Shown: piece by piece, positions 5,478-45,541 of the stretch
How positions within the stretch are numbered: the first letter of the stretch is position 1
How the letters are laid out: every line of letters starts with the position of its first letter
From: Candidatus Bathyarchaeota archaeon
GTDB lineage: Archaea; Thermoproteota; Bathyarchaeia; Bathyarchaeales; Bathycorpusculaceae
Direction of reading: 5' to 3'
Length of the DNA: 64,000 nt
NCBI GenBank assembly: GCA_963826715.1
Contig: CAWGYA010000002.1
Span: 320,001-384,000 of the forward strand
Program-made: the position numbers and the translations under genes
Notes under the pieces: model-generated
What the model saw: only the letters and a program-made list of their open reading frames with translations
What the model was told of the DNA's origin: nothing
Databases searched by the model: none

Positions 5478-7392
5478 TCAACCAGACATTTCCGCTAACT
5501 CCACCCGATAAACATACAAGCCATTGTCGGAATATACGTGCGTCAACCAGCTCACGTCATTTAAATAAGCTACACACTCTGGGTAATTACGCAATTCATC
5601 ATTTCCGACATACACATAACTCACATTAAATTCGCGGACAACTTCTGATAGTTGGCTCACGTTCCCATTATAAGCATCATCAATGGCATGCTCGCGCCTA
5701 TTTACTTCATTGAGAGGTTCACCATGCCCATAGGGCCAATACACATACGATGAAACACGAAGGCGCCCCGCAATCATCGATGGCGGGCACTGAATACTAT
5801 AATAGGTTAGAAAAACCGAATTCTGAGGGGTGTTATCCTTTATCCATGTGCCAACTTGGTATTCACTCCAACTAACGCCTGTGTAGTCTGTCCCAACATT
5901 GTAAATGATTACACTTGCCGAAGTTATAACCGAGAGCAAAACGAGTGATATAACAAAGATCTTTCCTCTTTTCGACAAAATTATCCCACTTAACACGGTA
6001 ATTGGCACCCAGGCGAAGATGAAGAATTTGTACATGTCCCAGTTCCAAGGCGTCAAGAGAAGAATATTGGGAATGAAGAAGAGAAACAGAAAAGTGACTT
6101 TAAGGTTTTCATGACCTGGCTTAACAAAGGAAATTATTGCTAAAATGAAAGGGATACCTAGATTGAGGAAGTAGTAAATCCAGGGGTTCACAGCGAAGTC
6201 AATTACAAACTCGGAGCTAACACTGATGGAGAAGGATGGTCCACCTGAAAAGATAAATGGCAAGGCGAAAATACTTGGCACCAGAAAATATAGAAAGCCC
6301 CAGTTAATTTTACGCGCACTAAAAATTAAGACAACCGCGAAAGCGACATAACAGCAGAAGAACGCTACGTTATGAAACTGAAAAACCAGTCCAGTGAGGA
6401 TGCCAGCAAGTAGAAGACGGTTTTTGTCACCAGAGTCACGTAGCAACGCCAAAACCAACGCGAACACAGGCAGCCCCATTAGAAGCGGACGCTGTTGTAG
6501 CAAATTATCGAATATTGAGGGTAGCCCAAACTGTTGTCCAAATTGGTAAATATAATTGGTAGTCGGCGTGAAGGTACCGTTAAGGAGCGCAGAGAATAGC
6601 CCAAAGTAACTCAAGCCCCAGCCGAAAACAGCTAAAACCGTTGCAACAACCGCAGCTCGTCTACCGTAGGGGCGCGCCAACGCATACATGGCGCCTGCAA
6701 ATACCAAAATAAACACGGCGTTAAGCACGGGAAGAAGCGTTGGTAAGTAGCCGTAGAGTTTCTCTATAAGGGCAGTATGGAAATCAACAAAGTAATGATA
6801 CGTCAGGGGGGTGCCGACATAGTTGGGGGTTTGAGGAGGAAAGTTGCCGTTGTTTATGCTTTCGATTATGTCAAAGTGGTAGGGAGTGTCCTGCCAGTTT
6901 GATCCAGTGATAACAATTCCGTATTGGTTGCCCCGCCAGACGCTGTAACAGAGCACGCTAAGCGATAACAAAAAAATAACTGTGAAGACGAGTAAGGTAG
7001 ATTTTTTAAGCTTAAGAATTTTGAGTAAACTTTGTGGCTGTAGCGGTTCACCTTTTTTGTAAACAACTAAGGCATACATTGCTGTTAACACAAAAAAACT
7101 CGCAACAATTAGAAGCCTAGAATATCCAAACTCTAAAGACAAAAAATATATGAGAAATACCGAAACCAACACGCTAAAAATTGGAACAAAAACCCAAGTT
7201 TCATGGGATTTTAAATTGAAGAAACGGTAGCCGATTAAGCCAGGAACAAGAAATGTGAAGATGAGCCCCATCGCCACTGCAATGTAGCCACCAATAAAAG
7301 TAGCTGTAGCTAAGATCAGAAGCACTAATGATAGCCAATATTTTTGCAGAACACCGCAGGCTATTTTTGAAGCGATTTCTCTGTCCCCTCAA
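5478..7392 (-). CDS. polytopic membrane protein, GT-C glycosyltransferase-like; probable frameshift near 7325
   Basis: Many TMs, D-x-P-Y-H and L-x-YHY-F loop motifs, C-terminal YVYVGxxE domain. The true start is probably TTG at 7392 (SD-like GAAGGT) joined by a 1-nt indel. Confidence 0.7.
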
Positions 7393-7553
7393 GCTACCTT
7401 CAGAATTAAGTGATTTTGGCGTATTAAGATTACTGCCGACGCGCGTTCTACAAGGTAAAATTGGAGTTTGCCCCTTTGGAGTTGATGATTAACCCAAAAT
7501 CCGAGAAAGCTTAATTAACCGAATTATCGTGTATTGATGCGGCGCATCAGTTT

Positions 7554-11407: not shown

Positions 11408-13018
11408 ATGTTAACCACCCCCGTTAAATGTTTCATGCTGCCATTCGCAACCAAGAAAAACCAAGACCCCAAGATTGAGGAAGCTGCGGTCTTTGCCATC
11501 TCAGAACTTCAGAGAAATAAGGGCGGAGGTTTACTTTTAAAGCAACCACAAGAAAAACTGTCTTTCGTATCAAGAGCGGCGTATCCCGTTTGGGTGTATC
11601 CCAAAAACAATTCGGCGTTAATCTTTGATGGCTTAAACGATTCAAGATATACCGCCTCATATAGTGAGGCACCTTCTGCGGGGGTTTTTTTGGATAATCT
11701 CCAATTAAATCAACGCCCAAGAGAAAACTACGCCGCATTCCTATCGAAGAATCAGTACTATTTTCAGAAACCACTCAAAGAAAAAGAATTCACCCTACAA
11801 GGCATAATAACCGACACAGTCTTCAAAGCAGAGTTTAACTTATACCGCAAAGAAGCCGATGATTTAAGTGTACCAGCAACGGTTCTTGAGCCTTTGCTTG
11901 AGGCAAATGAGATTGCGGCAATACTTAGTGAGTTAGATAAACTTCAGACTTATATTAATAACGACGCACAAAAACTGACAGAGTGCCTCAGAGCCCTCAC
12001 TAAAACAACCAGTCAATACATATCTGAAATAGACTTTGAAGCCAACGCAACTAATGAAGAAGCTGAAGCAAAAATAAAGGCACAAGGTGAATTCACTAAC
12101 CCCCAAATAACCAAACTCAACAAAGAGTATCAACGTGAAATCAAAAAAGTAACCCAGGACTTTGAAAGTAAAATAAAAAACCAGCAGAAGCAGAAAATAA
12201 AAATATTGAAAGACATATTGAACGCTGAAGCAAAAAGCCATAAATATGAACGTGAAGCAAAAGCACAGAGCAAGAAGGGGAATGAATTTTATGAGAAGCA
12301 TTGGAAAGAAAAAGTTAAGGTTACCGAGAAAGATCTCGCTACCCTTAAAAAAGAAAATAAAAACATAGAAAATAACATTAAAACACTTTCCAAACAAAAA
12401 ACCCAAGATATCTCCAAACTTAGTTTTGATTTGGACTCAAAAATCAAACTGGCACGTCAACCCCTCAAAGACCTGGCGGAAAACAGAGAAGATAAAAACT
12501 TTGCATATAAACAAGAAAAAAACAAGTTACTGGCACTTGAGAAAACCATAGTATATGGAATCAATAAGAGCATCAAACTACGAGAAACAATCAATACAAA
12601 TTTTGAGGGCTTAGGAACTCAAAATACTCAAATTAAGAACCCAACCCTGTTCTATATACCTTTTTATTTAGTCTGTTACGAAAACGATTCAGCCAGACGC
12701 TACACTTACGTTTCCCCATCTTCAGTTAGTTCGATTGATTTTTCAACTAAAATCAAAGGAGCATTGGGCATCCCTAAAATTAAGGACCTCCTTACACCCC
12801 GCTTTCAAGCTATAGCCGATCTCATAACCAATGTCGAAACACTCTCACGCCAAGACAACTGCTTTGAAGAGACCATTTGGAATTTTGGAGTGAAAAACAA
12901 CTTAATAAAAAACAACGCCTTCCAAAGTAACGTTGCCGAAGGTCTGCATATTCTTAGAACGCAAGGCTGGCTCTCAGAGAATGAAACATCAGACCTAAGC
13001 AGCCTATTGCATTCTTAA
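11408..13018 (+). CDS. coiled-coil hypothetical protein
   Basis: 536-aa ORF with a long K/E/Q heptad-rich centre flanked by globular YPxW and YIPFY segments. Confidence 0.8.
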   Translation: MLTTPVKCFMLPFATKKNQDPKIEEAAVFAISELQRNKGGGLLLKQPQEKLSFVSRAAYPVWVYPKNNSALIFDGLNDSRYTASYSEAPSAGVFLDNLQLNQRPRENYAAFLSKNQYYFQKPLKEKEFTLQGIITDTVFKAEFNLYRKEADDLSVPATVLEPLLEANEIAAILSELDKLQTYINNDAQKLTECLRALTKTTSQYISEIDFEANATNEEAEAKIKAQGEFTNPQITKLNKEYQREIKKVTQDFESKIKNQQKQKIKILKDILNAEAKSHKYEREAKAQSKKGNEFYEKHWKEKVKVTEKDLATLKKENKNIENNIKTLSKQKTQDISKLSFDLDSKIKLARQPLKDLAENREDKNFAYKQEKNKLLALEKTIVYGINKSIKLRETINTNFEGLGTQNTQIKNPTLFYIPFYLVCYENDSARRYTYVSPSSVSSIDFSTKIKGALGIPKIKDLLTPRFQAIADLITNVETLSRQDNCFEETIWNFGVKNNLIKNNAFQSNVAEGLHILRTQGWLSENETSDLSSLLHS

Positions 13019-42280: not shown

Positions 42281-42592
42281 ACTTAATTAATTATTTTTTT
42301 AAAGTGAAAAGAGATTGGGGAAAAAGTGATTAAAAATAAGAGGTGAGGCTTTTACCCGAATAAGGCATCCGTTAACGTCCGTATTATTATTTTTATATGT
42401 CAATTTGGTAACTGGAGGTTGGTAATATGTATGCAAACCAATTCCTTAAAGTCTAAACGGGAAAGGGAATCGCACCTCAACTCAAAAGCCCATCCCCAGT
42501 ACAAATACTGACATGGATGTTTAGGGTTCGGTTCCCCAGCGAGCCCGCCACCCCCCGTGCGAATATGTACTTTTTTGATTTGGGTTAGATTC

Positions 42593-42663
42593 AGTCAAGA
42601 AACTTTTGCGACAAGAAATAGTCAAGAAATCTGAACTAAAAAAGTAGAGCCTAGTCAAGAAAC
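42593..42663 (+). repeat. three AGTCAAGAAA direct repeats
   Basis: Copies at 42593, 42620 and 42653, plus a partial ACAAGAAA at 42611. Confidence 0.75.
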
Positions 42664-42708
42664 CTGTACAAAAAGGTTTTTTTACCGATACAACTCTTTC
42701 AGATTTAA

Positions 42709-43689
42709 ATGAAACCGCTCAAACTGTTAGGTCTGCTGATTATCGGCGTGTTTTTGGCGTCCACCCTAACAGCGACTGCTCAAATGTACCCAAAGGCATT
42801 GAACCCGACAGTTTACGGGGATACAACCATTTACGAGTTCAATGGTAACCCTATAAACCTAACCGCAGTCATCGACTCTTTGGAAATCAGAAACAACCAC
42901 ACCGAAGTCGCTTTTACCTTGACGCTTAACTCGCAGACATTTGATATGATGGGCGAAGAGATGAATTCGAGCCAATACCACAAACCCGAAGAAACAGGAG
43001 TCCTTCAATACTATTTGTGGTCAGGTTTGACATTTGATTTAGACAGAAATTTCACCATAAACGCTGTTTGGGTCAACTGGTTAGCTGGAAGTGGAAAAGA
43101 CATTGAAAATGGTTACACAACACTGGATGCATATAGCCACTATTTTTCATTAAATCAATCAGGAGACAGCTTCCATGGCAACGCTGTTTTGCCAAAGCTC
43201 TCAGAAGGTGTTCATAACGTTACTTTTTGGGTTACAGCTAGGCAGAATTACATCTCATACTTCAATCCCCTTTGGGCGGTTTTCTCCAAAACTGTCATAT
43301 TTACTGCGGATACCACAGCCCCAACCGTCACTGTAATGTCTCCTGCAAACCAAACCTACGCTGCCGATAGGGTTCCGCTGGATTTCTTTGTTAACGAATC
43401 CAGCCCCAGAATGAGTTACAGTTTAGACGGAATGGAGAATGTTAACGTCTCAGGCAACACTACACTAGCAGAGTTGTCCAATGGCGTACACAGCATAATA
43501 ATCTATGCTGAAGACGCGTTTGGTAACGTCGGTGCCTCAGAAACAGTCGCCTTCACCGTTGCAAAGCCTGATACTTCACTAACAACATTAGTAATAATTA
43601 TCACGGCGGCAGTGGTGACAGGCGCAGGCTTGCTGCTTTACTTCAAGAAACACAAACACCCGAAAAATTCACTTTTTAATGCGTCTTGA
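42709..43689 (+). CDS. secreted Ig-like surface protein with C-terminal TM anchor
   Basis: Signal peptide, DTTAP.V...SP.N.TY, YSLDG, L.NG.H....YA.D..GN, TM plus KKHK. Confidence 0.85.
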   Translation: MKPLKLLGLLIIGVFLASTLTATAQMYPKALNPTVYGDTTIYEFNGNPINLTAVIDSLEIRNNHTEVAFTLTLNSQTFDMMGEEMNSSQYHKPEETGVLQYYLWSGLTFDLDRNFTINAVWVNWLAGSGKDIENGYTTLDAYSHYFSLNQSGDSFHGNAVLPKLSEGVHNVTFWVTARQNYISYFNPLWAVFSKTVIFTADTTAPTVTVMSPANQTYAADRVPLDFFVNESSPRMSYSLDGMENVNVSGNTTLAELSNGVHSIIIYAEDAFGNVGASETVAFTVAKPDTSLTTLVIIITAAVVTGAGLLLYFKKHKHPKNSLFNAS

Positions 43690-43825
43690 ACCAGTTATGG
43701 CGTCATAGATTTTTTTGATGCTGGGATAATTCAAGTATTCTCTAGCGAACTTGCGCATAAGTGTTGCCTAAAATGAATAAGGGGAAAAAGAAGTATATAA
43801 AATAATACACCCGTTAACGGGGTGC

Positions 43826-44140
43826 TTACCCGAATAGGGCGCCTAATCCTTCTAATGCTGCTTCTTCTTTGGCTTTTTCGTCTTCTGCTTTCTTCTTCTT
43901 GTCTTCTGGAGCTGCTGCTGCGGGTTTAGATTCTGCCGCTGCAACTGGAGCTGCTGCCATCATAGTTGGTGCTGCTTTAATGGCTTCATCGATGTTAACT
44001 TCGCTAAGGGAAGCTACAAGAGCTTTAACTTTAACTGCGTCAACTTCGAGTCCTGCTGCTGCGAGAACTTTTGTTACGGATTCTTCGTTGATTTCTTTAC
44101 CTGCCTTGTGAAGGAGCATTGCTGCGTAAATGTTTTCCAT
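43826..44140 (-). CDS. rpl12: 50S ribosomal stalk protein aP1/L12
   Basis: YAAMLLH..GKEI, Ala-rich hinge, EGLGALFG C-terminus. Confidence 0.97.
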
Positions 44141-44187
44141 ACCTTTTCACCTCTTCATTCGAGTATTTTAACCTTTTTAGTTAGCAT

Positions 44188-44249
44188 GACCCACTTCCAT
44201 TGGAAGCTGGCCGTTACTGAATTGGCAGTTCGGTCCGCCGAATCTTGCC
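44188..44249 (-). promoter_or_regulatory. structured 5' leader of rpl12 (two hairpins)
   Basis: GGCA-AGA-TTCGG-CGGA-CCGAA-C-TGCC and GGCCAG-CTTCC-AAT-GGAAG-TGGGTC downstream of TATA-like TTCTTAAG (~44271-44278). Confidence 0.5.
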
Positions 44250-44581
44250 GTTTAGATGAATACCCAATACCTTAAGAACCTTTCGTCCATATAATAACAG
44301 GTAAAATTTAGATATTGACTGTTTTTCATTAGTTACCTATTCGCAATCAACACGTACTGCGAATGCAAAAAATTAACTATACCTTGACACTGAGGACAAA
44401 AGCAGAAGAAGTTCATGGTGTCTCGTTGGAGTTTTCGGTTTTTTCTGATTATTCCCGTTCAGCAGGATTTGATGAATTAGAAAACCCACCTCTTTTCTAT
44501 TGAAGCATAAAGAAAACAAACTGACTCTCATAACACTTATCTTATAGACAACCCACATGCCCTTATCTACAGGTCATACCC

Positions 44582-45541
44582 ATGGGAAATATAACCATCG
44601 CCATACTTGGCAAATTGGACTATGGCAGTGCCCTCGCTAAAAAAGGCACCTCAACTGACATCACACTATATAACCTCAAAAAAGGCGAAGCGACTATAAC
44701 TTTTATCGAACCTACCAGATACCCCGAACGACTTGCACCTCTCTTCTATGCCTGCGCCCTAGCTAAAAAAGCACTAGTCATTGTAGATGAACTTAACGCA
44801 TCGTTCGGTGAACAACTAGTTATGCTCCAATGTAGCGACATCAAAAGCGGCTACTTTGTGCTCCGCAACTACATCCCAAAAGAAAAAATCGAGCCGCTTC
44901 TTAAAGGAACTAATCTAGAAAATTTTGAGTTTCTTGAAGACGACCCTAACCTAATACGTGAAAAGCTCCTAACAGAAGCGGACCAACAAAAATCCCCTGA
45001 ACCCTCAACTGTTGGATCAGTGCCCATTGACCACGCGTTTAACGTGAAAGGGGTCGGAGTAGTTGTCTTAGGCATAGTTATCAATGGAATCGTGCAGAAA
45101 CACTCAACTCTCAACGTCCTTCCAGGCACAAAAACCTCTCAGGTCCGCTCTATACAAAAACATGATGACGAATTTGACATAGCAAGCGAAGGAGACCGGG
45201 TAGGATTGGCACTAAAAAACGTTGTTGTGGAAGATTTGGACCGCGGTAATGTATTAACCAATGATCCAGCCATTAAGACCTCTAACAAGCTTCAAACAAC
45301 TGCTTCGCTGGTAAAATATTGGCAAACGCCAATAAAGGCAGGAATGGTGATGCATGTGGGGCATTGGACACAGTTTATAACCTCTAAAGTTGAAGCTATC
45401 ATAAAAGAAGATATTAGAAATCCCACCATCATGTTATCGCTAGATAAACCCTTGGTATATCGCCCAGGCGACAAGGCTGTTTTAATGTATCTTGAAGGCA
45501 CTAAGCTACGTGTAGCAGGAACCATAGAGCTATTTGCATAG
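44582..45541 (+). CDS. SelB-like / EF-Tu domain II-III protein with degenerate G-domain
   Basis: IDHAFNVKGVGVVVLG, RSIQKHD, GDRVGLALK; no GxxxxGK P-loop. Confidence 0.88.
   Translation: MGNITIAILGKLDYGSALAKKGTSTDITLYNLKKGEATITFIEPTRYPERLAPLFYACALAKKALVIVDELNASFGEQLVMLQCSDIKSGYFVLRNYIPKEKIEPLLKGTNLENFEFLEDDPNLIREKLLTEADQQKSPEPSTVGSVPIDHAFNVKGVGVVVLGIVINGIVQKHSTLNVLPGTKTSQVRSIQKHDDEFDIASEGDRVGLALKNVVVEDLDRGNVLTNDPAIKTSNKLQTTASLVKYWQTPIKAGMVMHVGHWTQFITSKVEAIIKEDIRNPTIMLSLDKPLVYRPGDKAVLMYLEGTKLRVAGTIELFA

What the first reader, a model, noticed from the sequence alone, without database searches (positions are those of the whole stretch)
42352..43840. Transposase-less mini-element at the rpl12 3' end with casposon-like architecture
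Seen: the last codons of rpl12 (Ala-Leu-Phe-Gly-stop, GCCYTATTCGGGTAA) are duplicated 1.47 kb away, and the distal copy is followed by a T-rich terminator-like tract. Just inside lie ~25-32-bp imperfect inverted repeats centred on CGTTAACG. The only intact cargo is a secreted Ig-like protein. Established: casposons have TIRs, long target duplications and insert at the 3' ends of conserved genes (tRNA, aEF-2). Inference: a non-autonomous or collapsed site-specific element using a ribosomal-protein gene as target, which I do not recognise as described. A recombinase att with inverted arms is the alternative, since the single mismatch is synonymous.
Basis: partly seen in the sequence, partly recalled or inferred. 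Interest (0 to 1): 0.85.

Follow-up and report, generated by a model that had tools for sequence, protein, structure and literature searches.

The report
Decayed integrase element at rpl12 end
The 1.47-kb insert behind the ribosomal stalk gene rpl12 is the gutted remnant of a tyrosine-integrase mobile element that repeatedly targets this gene's last codons in Bathyarchaeia; it is not a casposon-like transposon, and the kind of element is well known although this target seems new for archaea.

Summary
A 1474-bp insert lies exactly between the rpl12 stop codon and rpl12's native downstream region. It is bounded by a 15-bp direct repeat with inverted arms just inside. Same-genus relatives, and one contig of a ~99%-identical strain, have the precise empty site.

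The casposon reading fails. The genome has no Cas1. The insert still carries the first ~27 codons of a tyrosine integrase. Relatives carry 14-16-kb elements at the same site with the intact integrase (XerA-like, catalytic residues conserved) and an MCM-type helicase.

The "target duplication" is an att core. Only TATTCGGGTAA (11 bp) is shared by all elements. The base 5' of the distal copy is T in 5 of 5 elements but C in rpl12. The "TIRs" are 24-30-bp inverted attP arms around a likely 6-bp overlap, TTCGGG.

Elements occur in both orientations. Fifteen of 110 genus genomes have the site occupied, and ten of those show no distal repeat where the sequence allowed a look.

The window's copy is an integrase-less, att-bounded relic, like bacterial CIMEs. 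It carries a host-type surface-protein gene and a multicopy ~150-nt non-coding module.

Verdict: new member of a known kind; moderate interest.

The parts
43826..44140 (-). rpl12 (archaeal stalk protein aP1), intact, ending ...EGLGALFG*; its last codons are the integration target
   Evidence: PF00428, E 1.4e-13; same C-terminus in 36 of 41 relatives searched
43826..43840 (.). attL core: 15-bp direct repeat. The 11 bp at 43826-43836 (TATTCGGGTAA on the gene strand) are the block shared by all elements
42352..42366 (.). attR core: distal copy of the repeat. The base 5' of the 11-bp block on the gene strand is T (element-type) instead of the C of rpl12
   Evidence: T at attR and C at attL in 5 of 5 elements
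43794..43825 (.). integrase-side inverted arm (palindrome CACCCCGTTAACGGGTG), followed inward by a TATA-like box that would serve the integrase gene
   Evidence: (same layout upstream of the intact integrases of G092, G013, G086, G131, G132)
42367..42398 (.). distal inverted arm (CCGTTAACG...GTATTATT)
43678..43758 (-). truncated integrase gene: codons 1-27/28 only (MRKFAREYLNYPSIKKIYDAITGSRR), then out of homology and a stop
   Evidence: tblastn to G013 Int residues 1-28, 71% identity, E 3e-5; blastn 77% over 83 nt; frame read; G092 region 82% identical at DNA level
42709..43689 (+). 326-aa membrane-anchored surface protein with an Ig-like C-terminal domain; the only intact gene of the insert
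   Evidence: paralogues in the host chromosome at G000 C2:252477-252848 and C2:305812-306297
42649..43651 (+). cassette (promoter region plus most of the ORF), 91% identical to metagenome contig L083. There the orthologue sits among other surface-protein genes, with no rpl12 or integrase on that 2.4-kb contig
42593..42675 (+). three direct copies of (T)AGTCAAGAAAYYT upstream of the ORF; probably operator or promoter elements. Two copies are also seen upstream of the L083 orthologue
   Evidence: (families D4, D5)
42389..42541 (+). multicopy conserved non-coding module: a TATA-like box plus about 125 nt, followed by a T-run at about 42570
   Evidence: 3 further copies in the genome at 80-82%; many copies across the genus; no Rfam match; little covariation
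42290..42351 (-). native rpl12 downstream, terminator-like T-rich region, displaced 1474 bp from the gene by the insert
   Evidence: matches the sequence that directly follows the rpl12 stop in 22 of 23 same-genus loci

Best explanation
The 1474-bp insert (42352-43825) is the deletion-derived, integrase-less remnant of a site-specific integrative element, a cryptic plasmid-like element that encodes a XerA-like tyrosine integrase and an MCM-type helicase.

This element family integrates into the last codons of rpl12. The element's attP carries its own copy of TATTCGGGTAA (Leu-Phe-Gly-stop), flanked by 24-30-bp inverted arms. The integrase exchanges strands within this core, probably across the 6-bp overlap TTCGGG. 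The result is that rpl12 is rebuilt intact (attL) and a second core copy lies at the far end (attR).

Because the arms are nearly symmetric, only the asymmetric core sets the direction. Sub-lineages whose core is flipped relative to the integrase gene sit in the opposite orientation.

In this genome, the element interior from integrase codon ~28 onward was lost, most simply by one internal deletion. What remains is both att junctions, the integrase promoter and stub, a host-type surface-protein gene and a small non-coding module. The genome has no cognate integrase, so the relic cannot move on its own. It is the archaeal counterpart of a bacterial CIME.

Shown: the insertion, the empty sites, the integrase stub, full elements at the same site, the variable repeat length, the arm symmetry, and both orientations.
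Inferred: the crossover position, the deletion history, and present immobility.
For: (1) Empty sites. In 22 of 23 same-genus loci the rpl12 stop is followed directly by the sequence that in the window follows the distal repeat. A 251-nt contig of run X5 joins window 42351 to 43826 exactly, skipping 1474 bp with 11 ambiguous letters and 3 differences in 251 nt. Other species of the genus are only 86-88% identical in rpl12.

(2) Integrase stub inside the insert.

(3) Full elements at the same site. G013 has 14.3 kb and G086 15.9 kb, each with both repeats. They share the integrase (75% identity), an MCM-like helicase (79%) and 3 more ORFs. All 5 integrases that are at least 72% identical to G013's lie at rpl12.

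(4) The integrase is a tyrosine recombinase. PF00589 E 1.9e-7; PHROG integrase E 4.8e-15; a profile hits archaeal XerA-type structures 4a8e (E 2e-10) and 5hxy. R156, H273, R276, H297 and Y306 are invariant in 7 sequences; their assignment as catalytic residues is recalled.

(5) att, not TSD. The identical block is 11-13 bp in intact elements and 11+3 bp in the window. The base 5' of it is T at attR and C at attL in 5 of 5 elements.

(6) Arm symmetry. 18-23 of 30 positions pair in 5 of 5 elements, against a shuffle mean of ~8 and a maximum of 17.

(7) Both orientations. The integrase abuts rpl12 in G000 and G092; G088 has the same type of end next to rpl12 but no integrase homologue was found there. 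The integrase abuts the distal end in G013, G086, G131 and G132.

(8) Erosion is common. Of the 15 occupied sites among 110 genus genomes with rpl12, 10 show the proximal end only. In the 8 I followed to the conserved neighbour gene there is no distal repeat and no integrase.

(9) No cognate integrase in the genome: the best other matches are 25-27% identical.
Against: No excised circle or free attP was found. The attP-specific pattern gave 0 of 332 family genomes. Its 39 IMG/VR matches had no integrase or helicase homologue and look like chance. An integrase profile found nothing in IMG/VR.

Recombination at this site has never been tested, and the crossover position is inferred only from symmetry.

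The insert's interior (surface-protein cassette, non-coding module) has no counterpart in the full elements I could read. Loss by a single deletion therefore assumes an unseen ancestor that carried this cargo.

An exact empty site in a ~99%-identical strain fits a recent integration or precise excision of the mini form as well as it fits a relic.

A site occupied in both orientations is what transposons typically show and is unusual for one integrase family.
Confidence: 0.85

Rival explanations
1. The mini form is itself a working non-autonomous element. It is a short att-bounded circle that integrated, or can excise, in its present 1.47-kb state, using an rpl12-specific integrase supplied in trans by a co-resident full element, or in cis by accretion as for bacterial CIMEs.
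For: Both att junctions and both arms are intact: 22 of 30 arm positions pair, as good as in full elements. A strain ~99% identical across the junction has the precise empty site, so presence or absence is polymorphic within a species. 151-nt contigs 100% identical to two parts of the cassette occur in another run, X1.
Against: It is single-copy. The arm motif occurs only at its own two ends in the genome. None of 119 other genus genomes holds the insert as a unit; hits are to sub-modules only. This genome has no cognate integrase. The integrase stub shows it arose by deletion from an autonomous element. Most other small inserts at the site have lost their distal end, which is the pattern of decay and not of spread.
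Confidence: 0.12
2. A casposon-like or other transposon: the terminal inverted repeats are recognised by a Cas1 or DDE enzyme that makes a staggered cut in the rpl12 end, giving a ~15-bp target-site duplication.
For: A direct repeat of 15 bp with inverted repeats just inside it; insertion at the 3' end of a conserved translation gene; both orientations occur. That casposons have 14-15-bp duplications and use tRNA or EF-2 gene ends is partly recalled and partly from PMC6563490 (passages read).
Against: No Cas1 in the genome, while the control search rang in 7 of 14 known genomes. No Cas1, PolB or transposase family among the 18 ORFs of the G013 element that were scanned. The identical block is only 11-13 bp in the intact elements, with an element-specific T next to it in 5 of 5. 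The gene that travels with the ends, and survives as a stub in the window, is a tyrosine integrase.
Confidence: 0.03
3. There is no element: the repeats are chance or a local duplication of the rpl12 end.
For: The repeat is short (15 bp) and the region is A+T-rich.
Against: 0 of 100 shuffles gave two copies. The sequence beyond the distal copy is the conserved native rpl12 downstream region. A contig skips exactly the 1474 bp. Homologous ends flank 14-16-kb elements elsewhere.
Confidence: 0.01

Closest known systems
Archaeal integrated mobile elements with non-split (not SSV-type) tyrosine integrases, including those inserted in the 3'-distal part of protein-coding genes (Thaumarchaeota survey, PMC6563490; review PMC8371274)
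   Same: A tyrosine integrase lies next to one att site. [quoted passage not shown] The target gene is rebuilt. Empty sites occur in relatives. The replication module has an MCM-type helicase.
   Different: The target is rpl12 (stalk protein aP1). No ribosomal-protein target is named in the passages and section I read: 'ribosomal protein' occurs 0 times in the main text of PMC6563490 and 'ribosomal' 0 times in PMC8371274. The supplementary table of targets could not be opened. The long, nearly symmetric attP arms and occupation in both orientations are not described there.
Streptococcal ICEs and IMEs whose tyrosine integrases integrate into the 3' end of rplL (bacterial L7/L12) (PMC4701971, passages read)
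   Same: Same logic and the functionally analogous gene. A site-specific tyrosine integrase uses the conserved last codons of the ribosomal stalk protein gene. [quoted passage not shown]
   Different: Different domain of life. aP1 and bL12 are analogues, not shown here to be homologues. The integrases are unrelated as far as tested. There is no conjugation module.
CIMEs (cis-mobilizable elements): decayed ICEs or IMEs that lost their integration and transfer genes but keep attL and attR (PMC5704250, passages read)
   Same: The window's insert keeps both att sites and has lost its integrase and backbone. The site could be re-used by an incoming element.
   Different: CIMEs are defined in bacteria and their mobilisation by accretion has been shown experimentally. 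Nothing of that is tested here. No tandem arrangement was seen at this site.
Casposons (Cas1-dependent self-synthesising transposons)
   Same: Inverted ends, a direct repeat of similar length, and a liking for the 3' ends of translation-related genes.
   Different: No Cas1 and no PolB. The repeat is an element-borne att core of variable length. The associated enzyme is a tyrosine recombinase.
lox/FRT/dif-type recombination sites (inverted arms around a 6-8-bp asymmetric spacer)
   Same: The deduced attP has inverted arms around a 6-bp asymmetric centre (TTCGGG). In G131 the inner arms TGTTTA/TAAACA are perfect. Direction would be set by the spacer alone.
   Different: The arms are about twice as long (24-30 bp) and each contains its own small palindrome. 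The partner site attB (the rpl12 end) shares only TA...TA(A) of the arms. Cleavage positions are not known.

Membership tests
Tyrosine-recombinase integrative element (att-site integration) | Encodes a tyrosine recombinase with the catalytic R...HxxR...H/W...Y set | tested here: met
   Full elements: PF00589, PHROG integrase, XerA-type structures; R156, H273, R276, H297 and Y306 invariant in 7 sequences. In the window only codons 1-27/28 survive, so the window copy itself no longer meets this.
Tyrosine-recombinase integrative element (att-site integration) | Direct repeats are an element-borne copy of the target (att core), not a duplication of host DNA | tested here: met
   The identical block varies from 11 to 15 bp. 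The base 5' of the block is T at attR and C at attL in 5 of 5 elements.
Tyrosine-recombinase integrative element (att-site integration) | Precise empty site in relatives, with the target gene reconstituted | tested here: met
   the rpl12 C-terminus is unchanged.
Tyrosine-recombinase integrative element (att-site integration) | Excised circular form carrying attP | tested here: not met
   The attP pattern gave 0 of 332 family genomes. IMG/VR matches are chance only. The searches cover assemblies, not raw reads, so this is weak negative evidence.
Casposon | Cas1 casposase | tested here: not met
   PF01867 absent from the 96%-complete genome while the controls were positive; absent from the 18 scanned ORFs of the G013 element.
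Casposon | Family B DNA polymerase | tested here: not met
   No polymerase family among the 18 scanned ORFs of the G013 element. The replication protein is MCM-like. The G086 and G131 interiors were compared only by BLAST.
Casposon | Terminal inverted repeats | tested here: met
   they are equally expected for separated attP arms.
Casposon | Fixed-length target-site duplication (about 14-15 bp) of host sequence | tested here: not met
   11-13 bp in intact elements, with an element-specific flanking base.
CIME-like relic (att-bounded element without recombination genes) | attL and attR retained, integrase and backbone lost | tested here: met
CIME-like relic (att-bounded element without recombination genes) | Mobilisation in cis or trans by a related element | not testable with these tools
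   The only indirect hint is the within-species presence/absence polymorphism.

The most novel reading that the evidence does not exclude
The rpl12 elements use an unusually long, lox-like palindromic attP (24-30-bp arms around the 6-bp spacer TTCGGG). Its spacer has been flipped between sub-lineages, perhaps by inversion between the arms in situ, so one integrase family can occupy the same gene end in either orientation. In this reading the window's 1.47-kb insert is not a dead relic but a miniature att-bounded element that still integrates and excises with an integrase supplied by a full element. That would explain the exact empty site in a ~99%-identical strain. It would be an archaeal, integrase-dependent counterpart of MITEs or CIMEs, carrying a surface-protein gene between strains.
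Probability: 0.12. Interest if true: 0.6.

Novelty: new member of a known kind. Interest (0 to 1): 0.4.

Why it matters
It corrects an attractive but wrong lead: there is no casposon relative and no new transposition mechanism here.

What remains is still useful.
- It is a previously undescribed (as far as my searches reach) family of Bathyarchaeia integrative elements.
- Its attachment site is the universally conserved C-terminal codons of the ribosomal stalk protein. This is a striking convergence with bacterial ICEs that use rplL.
- The site is a hot spot, occupied or scarred in about one genome in seven of this genus. It is therefore a handy marker for finding mobile DNA in uncultured Bathyarchaeia.
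- It is also a natural series showing how integrated elements erode, from 16 kb to 0.25 kb.
- The symmetric attP with an orientation-setting 6-bp centre is a simple, testable model for how archaeal integrases choose direction.

Tried and rejected
Casposon reading: rejected.

Chance repeats: rejected.

SSV-type split integrase: rejected. The stub starts at its own ATG about 65 nt from the core and reads inward, and the full integrases are intact after integration.

tRNA fragment inside the insert (the GGGTTCGGTTCC motif at about 42524): ARAGORN finds no tRNA there and Rfam finds nothing at E up to 1. The motif is the 3' strand of a predicted long-range helix of the multicopy module.

Coding reading of that module: no long ORF ends at the other three genomic copies.

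A structured-RNA claim for the module is not made. The single-sequence fold is no better than shuffles (z = 0.69). Only 1 of 31 predicted pairs shows a compensatory change in 7 sequences.

Free or viral form. The attP pattern gave 0 of 332 genomes and 39 chance matches in IMG/VR. The integrase profile found nothing in IMG/VR.

Same mini-element elsewhere: not found as a unit in 119 other genus genomes. The metagenome scan gave one contig (L083) with the surface-protein cassette only.

Right end of a full element with the integrase next to rpl12 (G092, contig C15): it shares nothing with the window's interior beyond the core and flank. In G088 no distal core was found within 10.5 kb of the neighbour gene.

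Sequencing runs. No run holds more than 0.10 of the sampled words. Apart from the bridging contig of X5 and the pieces named above, uncovered parts say nothing.

Rfam on three loci of the sister integrase clade: no match.

Papers.
- PMC10541130 (passages): no att site at rpl12 is mentioned.
- PMC8371274 (passages and section 18): tRNA targets dominate.
- PMC6563490 (passages): 14 of 68 elements lie in 3'-distal parts of protein-coding genes. Its Table S2 could not be opened because supplements are closed, so a ribosomal-protein target there cannot be excluded.
- Searches gave no paper on an archaeal rpl12 attachment site.

Full report
THE OBSERVATION

rpl12 (stalk protein aP1; PF00428, E 1.4e-13) lies at 43826-44140 on the minus strand. 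Its last 15 bases including the stop recur at 42352-42366 with one synonymous mismatch, 1474 bp away. These are the only two copies in the window (expected 0.21; 0 of 100 shuffles reached two) and in the 2.64-Mb genome.

Just inside lie inverted arms 42369-42395 and 43794-43820 (27 nt, 78% complementary). This is the longest inverted pair in the region. The 20-nt arm motif occurs nowhere else in the genome.

Two things were missed: a truncated integrase gene and a multicopy non-coding module.

IT IS A REAL INSERTION

In 22 of 23 same-genus loci, the rpl12 stop is followed at once by a conserved T-rich sequence (A/GCCTC...CTTATTTTTAACCAATTTTTCCC). In the window this sequence follows the distal repeat instead.

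A 251-nt contig from a wetland metagenome run (X5) joins window 42351 directly to 43826. It skips exactly 1474 bp, with 11 letters fitting either side and 3 differences in 251 nt. The species representatives of the genus are only 86-88% identical in rpl12. The empty site therefore exists in a strain of about the same species.

Gene order rpl12 - 379-aa membrane protein - 284-aa protein - 366-aa protein is conserved in the genus.

WHAT MOVES INTO THIS SITE

One relative, G013, has a different sequence after the stop. Following it gave a 14.3-kb insert that ends in ...TATTCGGGTAA plus the native downstream sequence. It encodes:
- a 427-aa tyrosine integrase next to the distal end (PF00589, E 1.9e-7);
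- a second integrase;
- a 730-aa MCM-type helicase;
- mostly unknown ORFs, with no Cas1, polymerase or capsid family among the 18 ORFs scanned.

G086 has a 15.9-kb insert with both repeats. It shares the integrase (75%), the helicase (79%) and three more ORFs with G013.

A search of 332 genomes of the family found 37 with integrase relatives at E <= 1e-20. The five that are at least 72% identical (G013, G092, G086, G131, G132) all lie at the rpl12 end.

A profile of seven integrases keeps R156, H273, R276, H297 and Y306 invariant. It matches archaeal XerA-type structures (4a8e, E 2e-10). Record titles name the relatives as Bathyarchaeia or Bathyarchaeota MAGs.

THE WINDOW'S INSERT IS A GUTTED COPY

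On the minus strand at about 43758-43678 the insert reads MRKFAREYLNYPSIKKIYDAITGSRR and then leaves homology. This is 71% identical to residues 1-28 of the G013 integrase. It is closest to G092, whose N-terminus was read. It sits behind the same arm-plus-TATA layout that precedes the intact integrases.

The rest of the interior is not element backbone:
- 42649-43651 is 91% identical to a metagenome contig, where the orthologous surface-protein gene sits between other surface-protein genes.
- The protein's C-terminal domain has paralogues in the host chromosome and homologues with Ig-like domains.
- 42389-42541 belongs to a ~150-nt non-coding family found many times in the genus.

The genome's other integrase-like genes are only 25-27% identical.

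ATT CORE OR TARGET DUPLICATION?

The block identical at both ends is 12 bp in G013, 13 bp in G086 and 11 bp in G131. In the window it is 11 bp plus 3 after one mismatch. Only TATTCGGGTAA is common to all.

The base 5' of that block is T at the distal end and C (the rpl12 codon CTA) at the proximal end in 5 of 5 elements with both ends known. A duplication of host DNA would copy the C. An element-borne core with T, and a crossover to its right, explains the pattern.

Cas1 is absent from the genome, while the same search rang in 7 control genomes.

THE 'TIRS' ARE THE attP ARMS

I took the 30 nt left of TTCGGG at the distal junction and the 30 nt right of it at the proximal junction. Of these, 18-23 of 30 positions are complementary in all five elements, against a shuffle mean of about 8 and a maximum of 17 in 2000 shuffles. 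In G131 the inner arms TGTTTA/TAAACA are perfect around TTCGGG.

The deduced attP is thus a long, nearly symmetric site with a 6-bp asymmetric centre. The rpl12 end shares only TA-TTCGGG-TAA. That the crossover lies at the borders of TTCGGG is my inference from this symmetry and from what is established for dif and lox-type sites (review PMC8371274, passages read).

BOTH ORIENTATIONS

In G000 and G092 the integrase end abuts rpl12. G088 has the same type of end next to rpl12, but no integrase homologue was found there. In G013, G086, G131 and G132 the integrase end abuts the distal junction.

In both classes the repeats are direct. So the core is flipped relative to the integrase gene and the arms, which is possible because the arms are symmetric. 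How the flip arose is speculation; inversion between the arms is one possibility.

A HOT SPOT THAT ERODES

rpl12 was found in 110 of 120 genus genomes. The site is occupied in 15:
- G000;
- G013, G086, G131 and G092, with integrases;
- G088;
- G054, G057, G075, G077, G147, G066, G070, G122 and G135.

G106 is ambiguous. The other 94 show a native-type junction. Of these, 30 were read directly. The rest were judged only from the short pattern match.

Of the eight inserts I followed to the conserved neighbour gene, none has a distal core or an integrase or helicase homologue. Their sizes are about 0.25, 0.25, 0.25, 0.45, 0.75, 5, 5 and 17 kb.

G132 has an empty rpl12 on one contig and a filled distal junction with the integrase on another. 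This is either a strain mixture or a binning effect.

WHAT COULD NOT BE SHOWN

No excised form was found. The mini-element was found nowhere else as a unit. No recombination has been assayed.

The exact empty site in a near-identical strain leaves three possibilities open: the relic is recent, it was excised there, or it moved in its mini form. I give the last about 0.12.

COMPARISON WITH WHAT IS KNOWN

Integration of tyrosine-integrase elements into the 3'-distal part of protein-coding genes is documented in archaea: 14 of 68 elements in Thaumarchaeota (PMC6563490, passages). Integration into the 3' end of rplL is documented for streptococcal ICEs (PMC4701971, passages). Integrase-less elements that keep attL and attR are known as CIMEs (PMC5704250, passages).

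I found no report of an archaeal rpl12 attachment site (searches; passages of PMC10541130, PMC8371274, PMC6563490). Supplements were closed.

VERDICT

A new member of a known kind. The casposon-like reading is not supported.

Noticed in passing
window 42389-42541; also G000 C2:449874-449962, C4:308-417, C5:148850-148941: A conserved ~150-nt non-coding module: a TATA-like box, then about 125 nt ending in GGGTTCGGTTCCCC. In the window a T-run follows it at about 42570. It is present in several copies per genome across the genus, often clustered 2-5 kb apart in the same orientation. 88 of 120 genus genomes matched the insert, nearly all through this part. It has no Rfam match, no consistent neighbouring gene and little covariation. 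It could be a small RNA gene family or a short repeat element.
   Followed up: partly
loci L039-L048, L050, L052, L053, L056, L057, L060; empty copy at G000 C2:120121 (outside the window): The sister clade of the integrase (51-64% identical in the full-length copies; some loci hold only fragments) always lies about 100 nt downstream of a conserved small-RNA-like gene, GCCGGATGATGAGAAGGCATTAG...GGATGAAA...CTCAGACGGCA. This gene has box C/D-like motifs and a terminal stem, judged by eye from recalled motif definitions. The window's genome has one unoccupied copy. A box C/D sRNA gene as an integrase target would be unusual. There is no Rfam match.
   Followed up: partly
G132: contig C9 (L066) and contig C11 (L069): The same MAG holds an empty rpl12 site on one contig, and a distal junction with the integrase plus the same neighbour genes on a 7.9-kb contig. 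This is either a strain mixture or a presence/absence polymorphism inside one population.
   Followed up: no
L033 (G013 element) 7083-7532 minus strand and 11500-12549 minus strand: The 14.3-kb element also encodes a retropepsin-like aspartyl protease (PF13650, E 4.4e-6) and a second, unrelated tyrosine integrase (349 aa). It may be a composite of two elements.
   Followed up: no
window 43794-43825 and the proximal ends in G013, G131, G054, G057, G075, G077, G147: The element end that comes to lie behind the rpl12 stop always provides a hairpin followed by a T-tract, for example GGGCAATTTATTGCCC plus ...AATTTTTCATTT. It may replace the displaced native terminator of rpl12.
   Followed up: no
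window 44141-45541: rpl12 stands alone. No rpl10 lies upstream, and the next gene (44582-45541, plus strand) is a 319-aa protein with EF-Tu domain 2 (PF03144). The same neighbour is conserved in the genus.
   Followed up: partly
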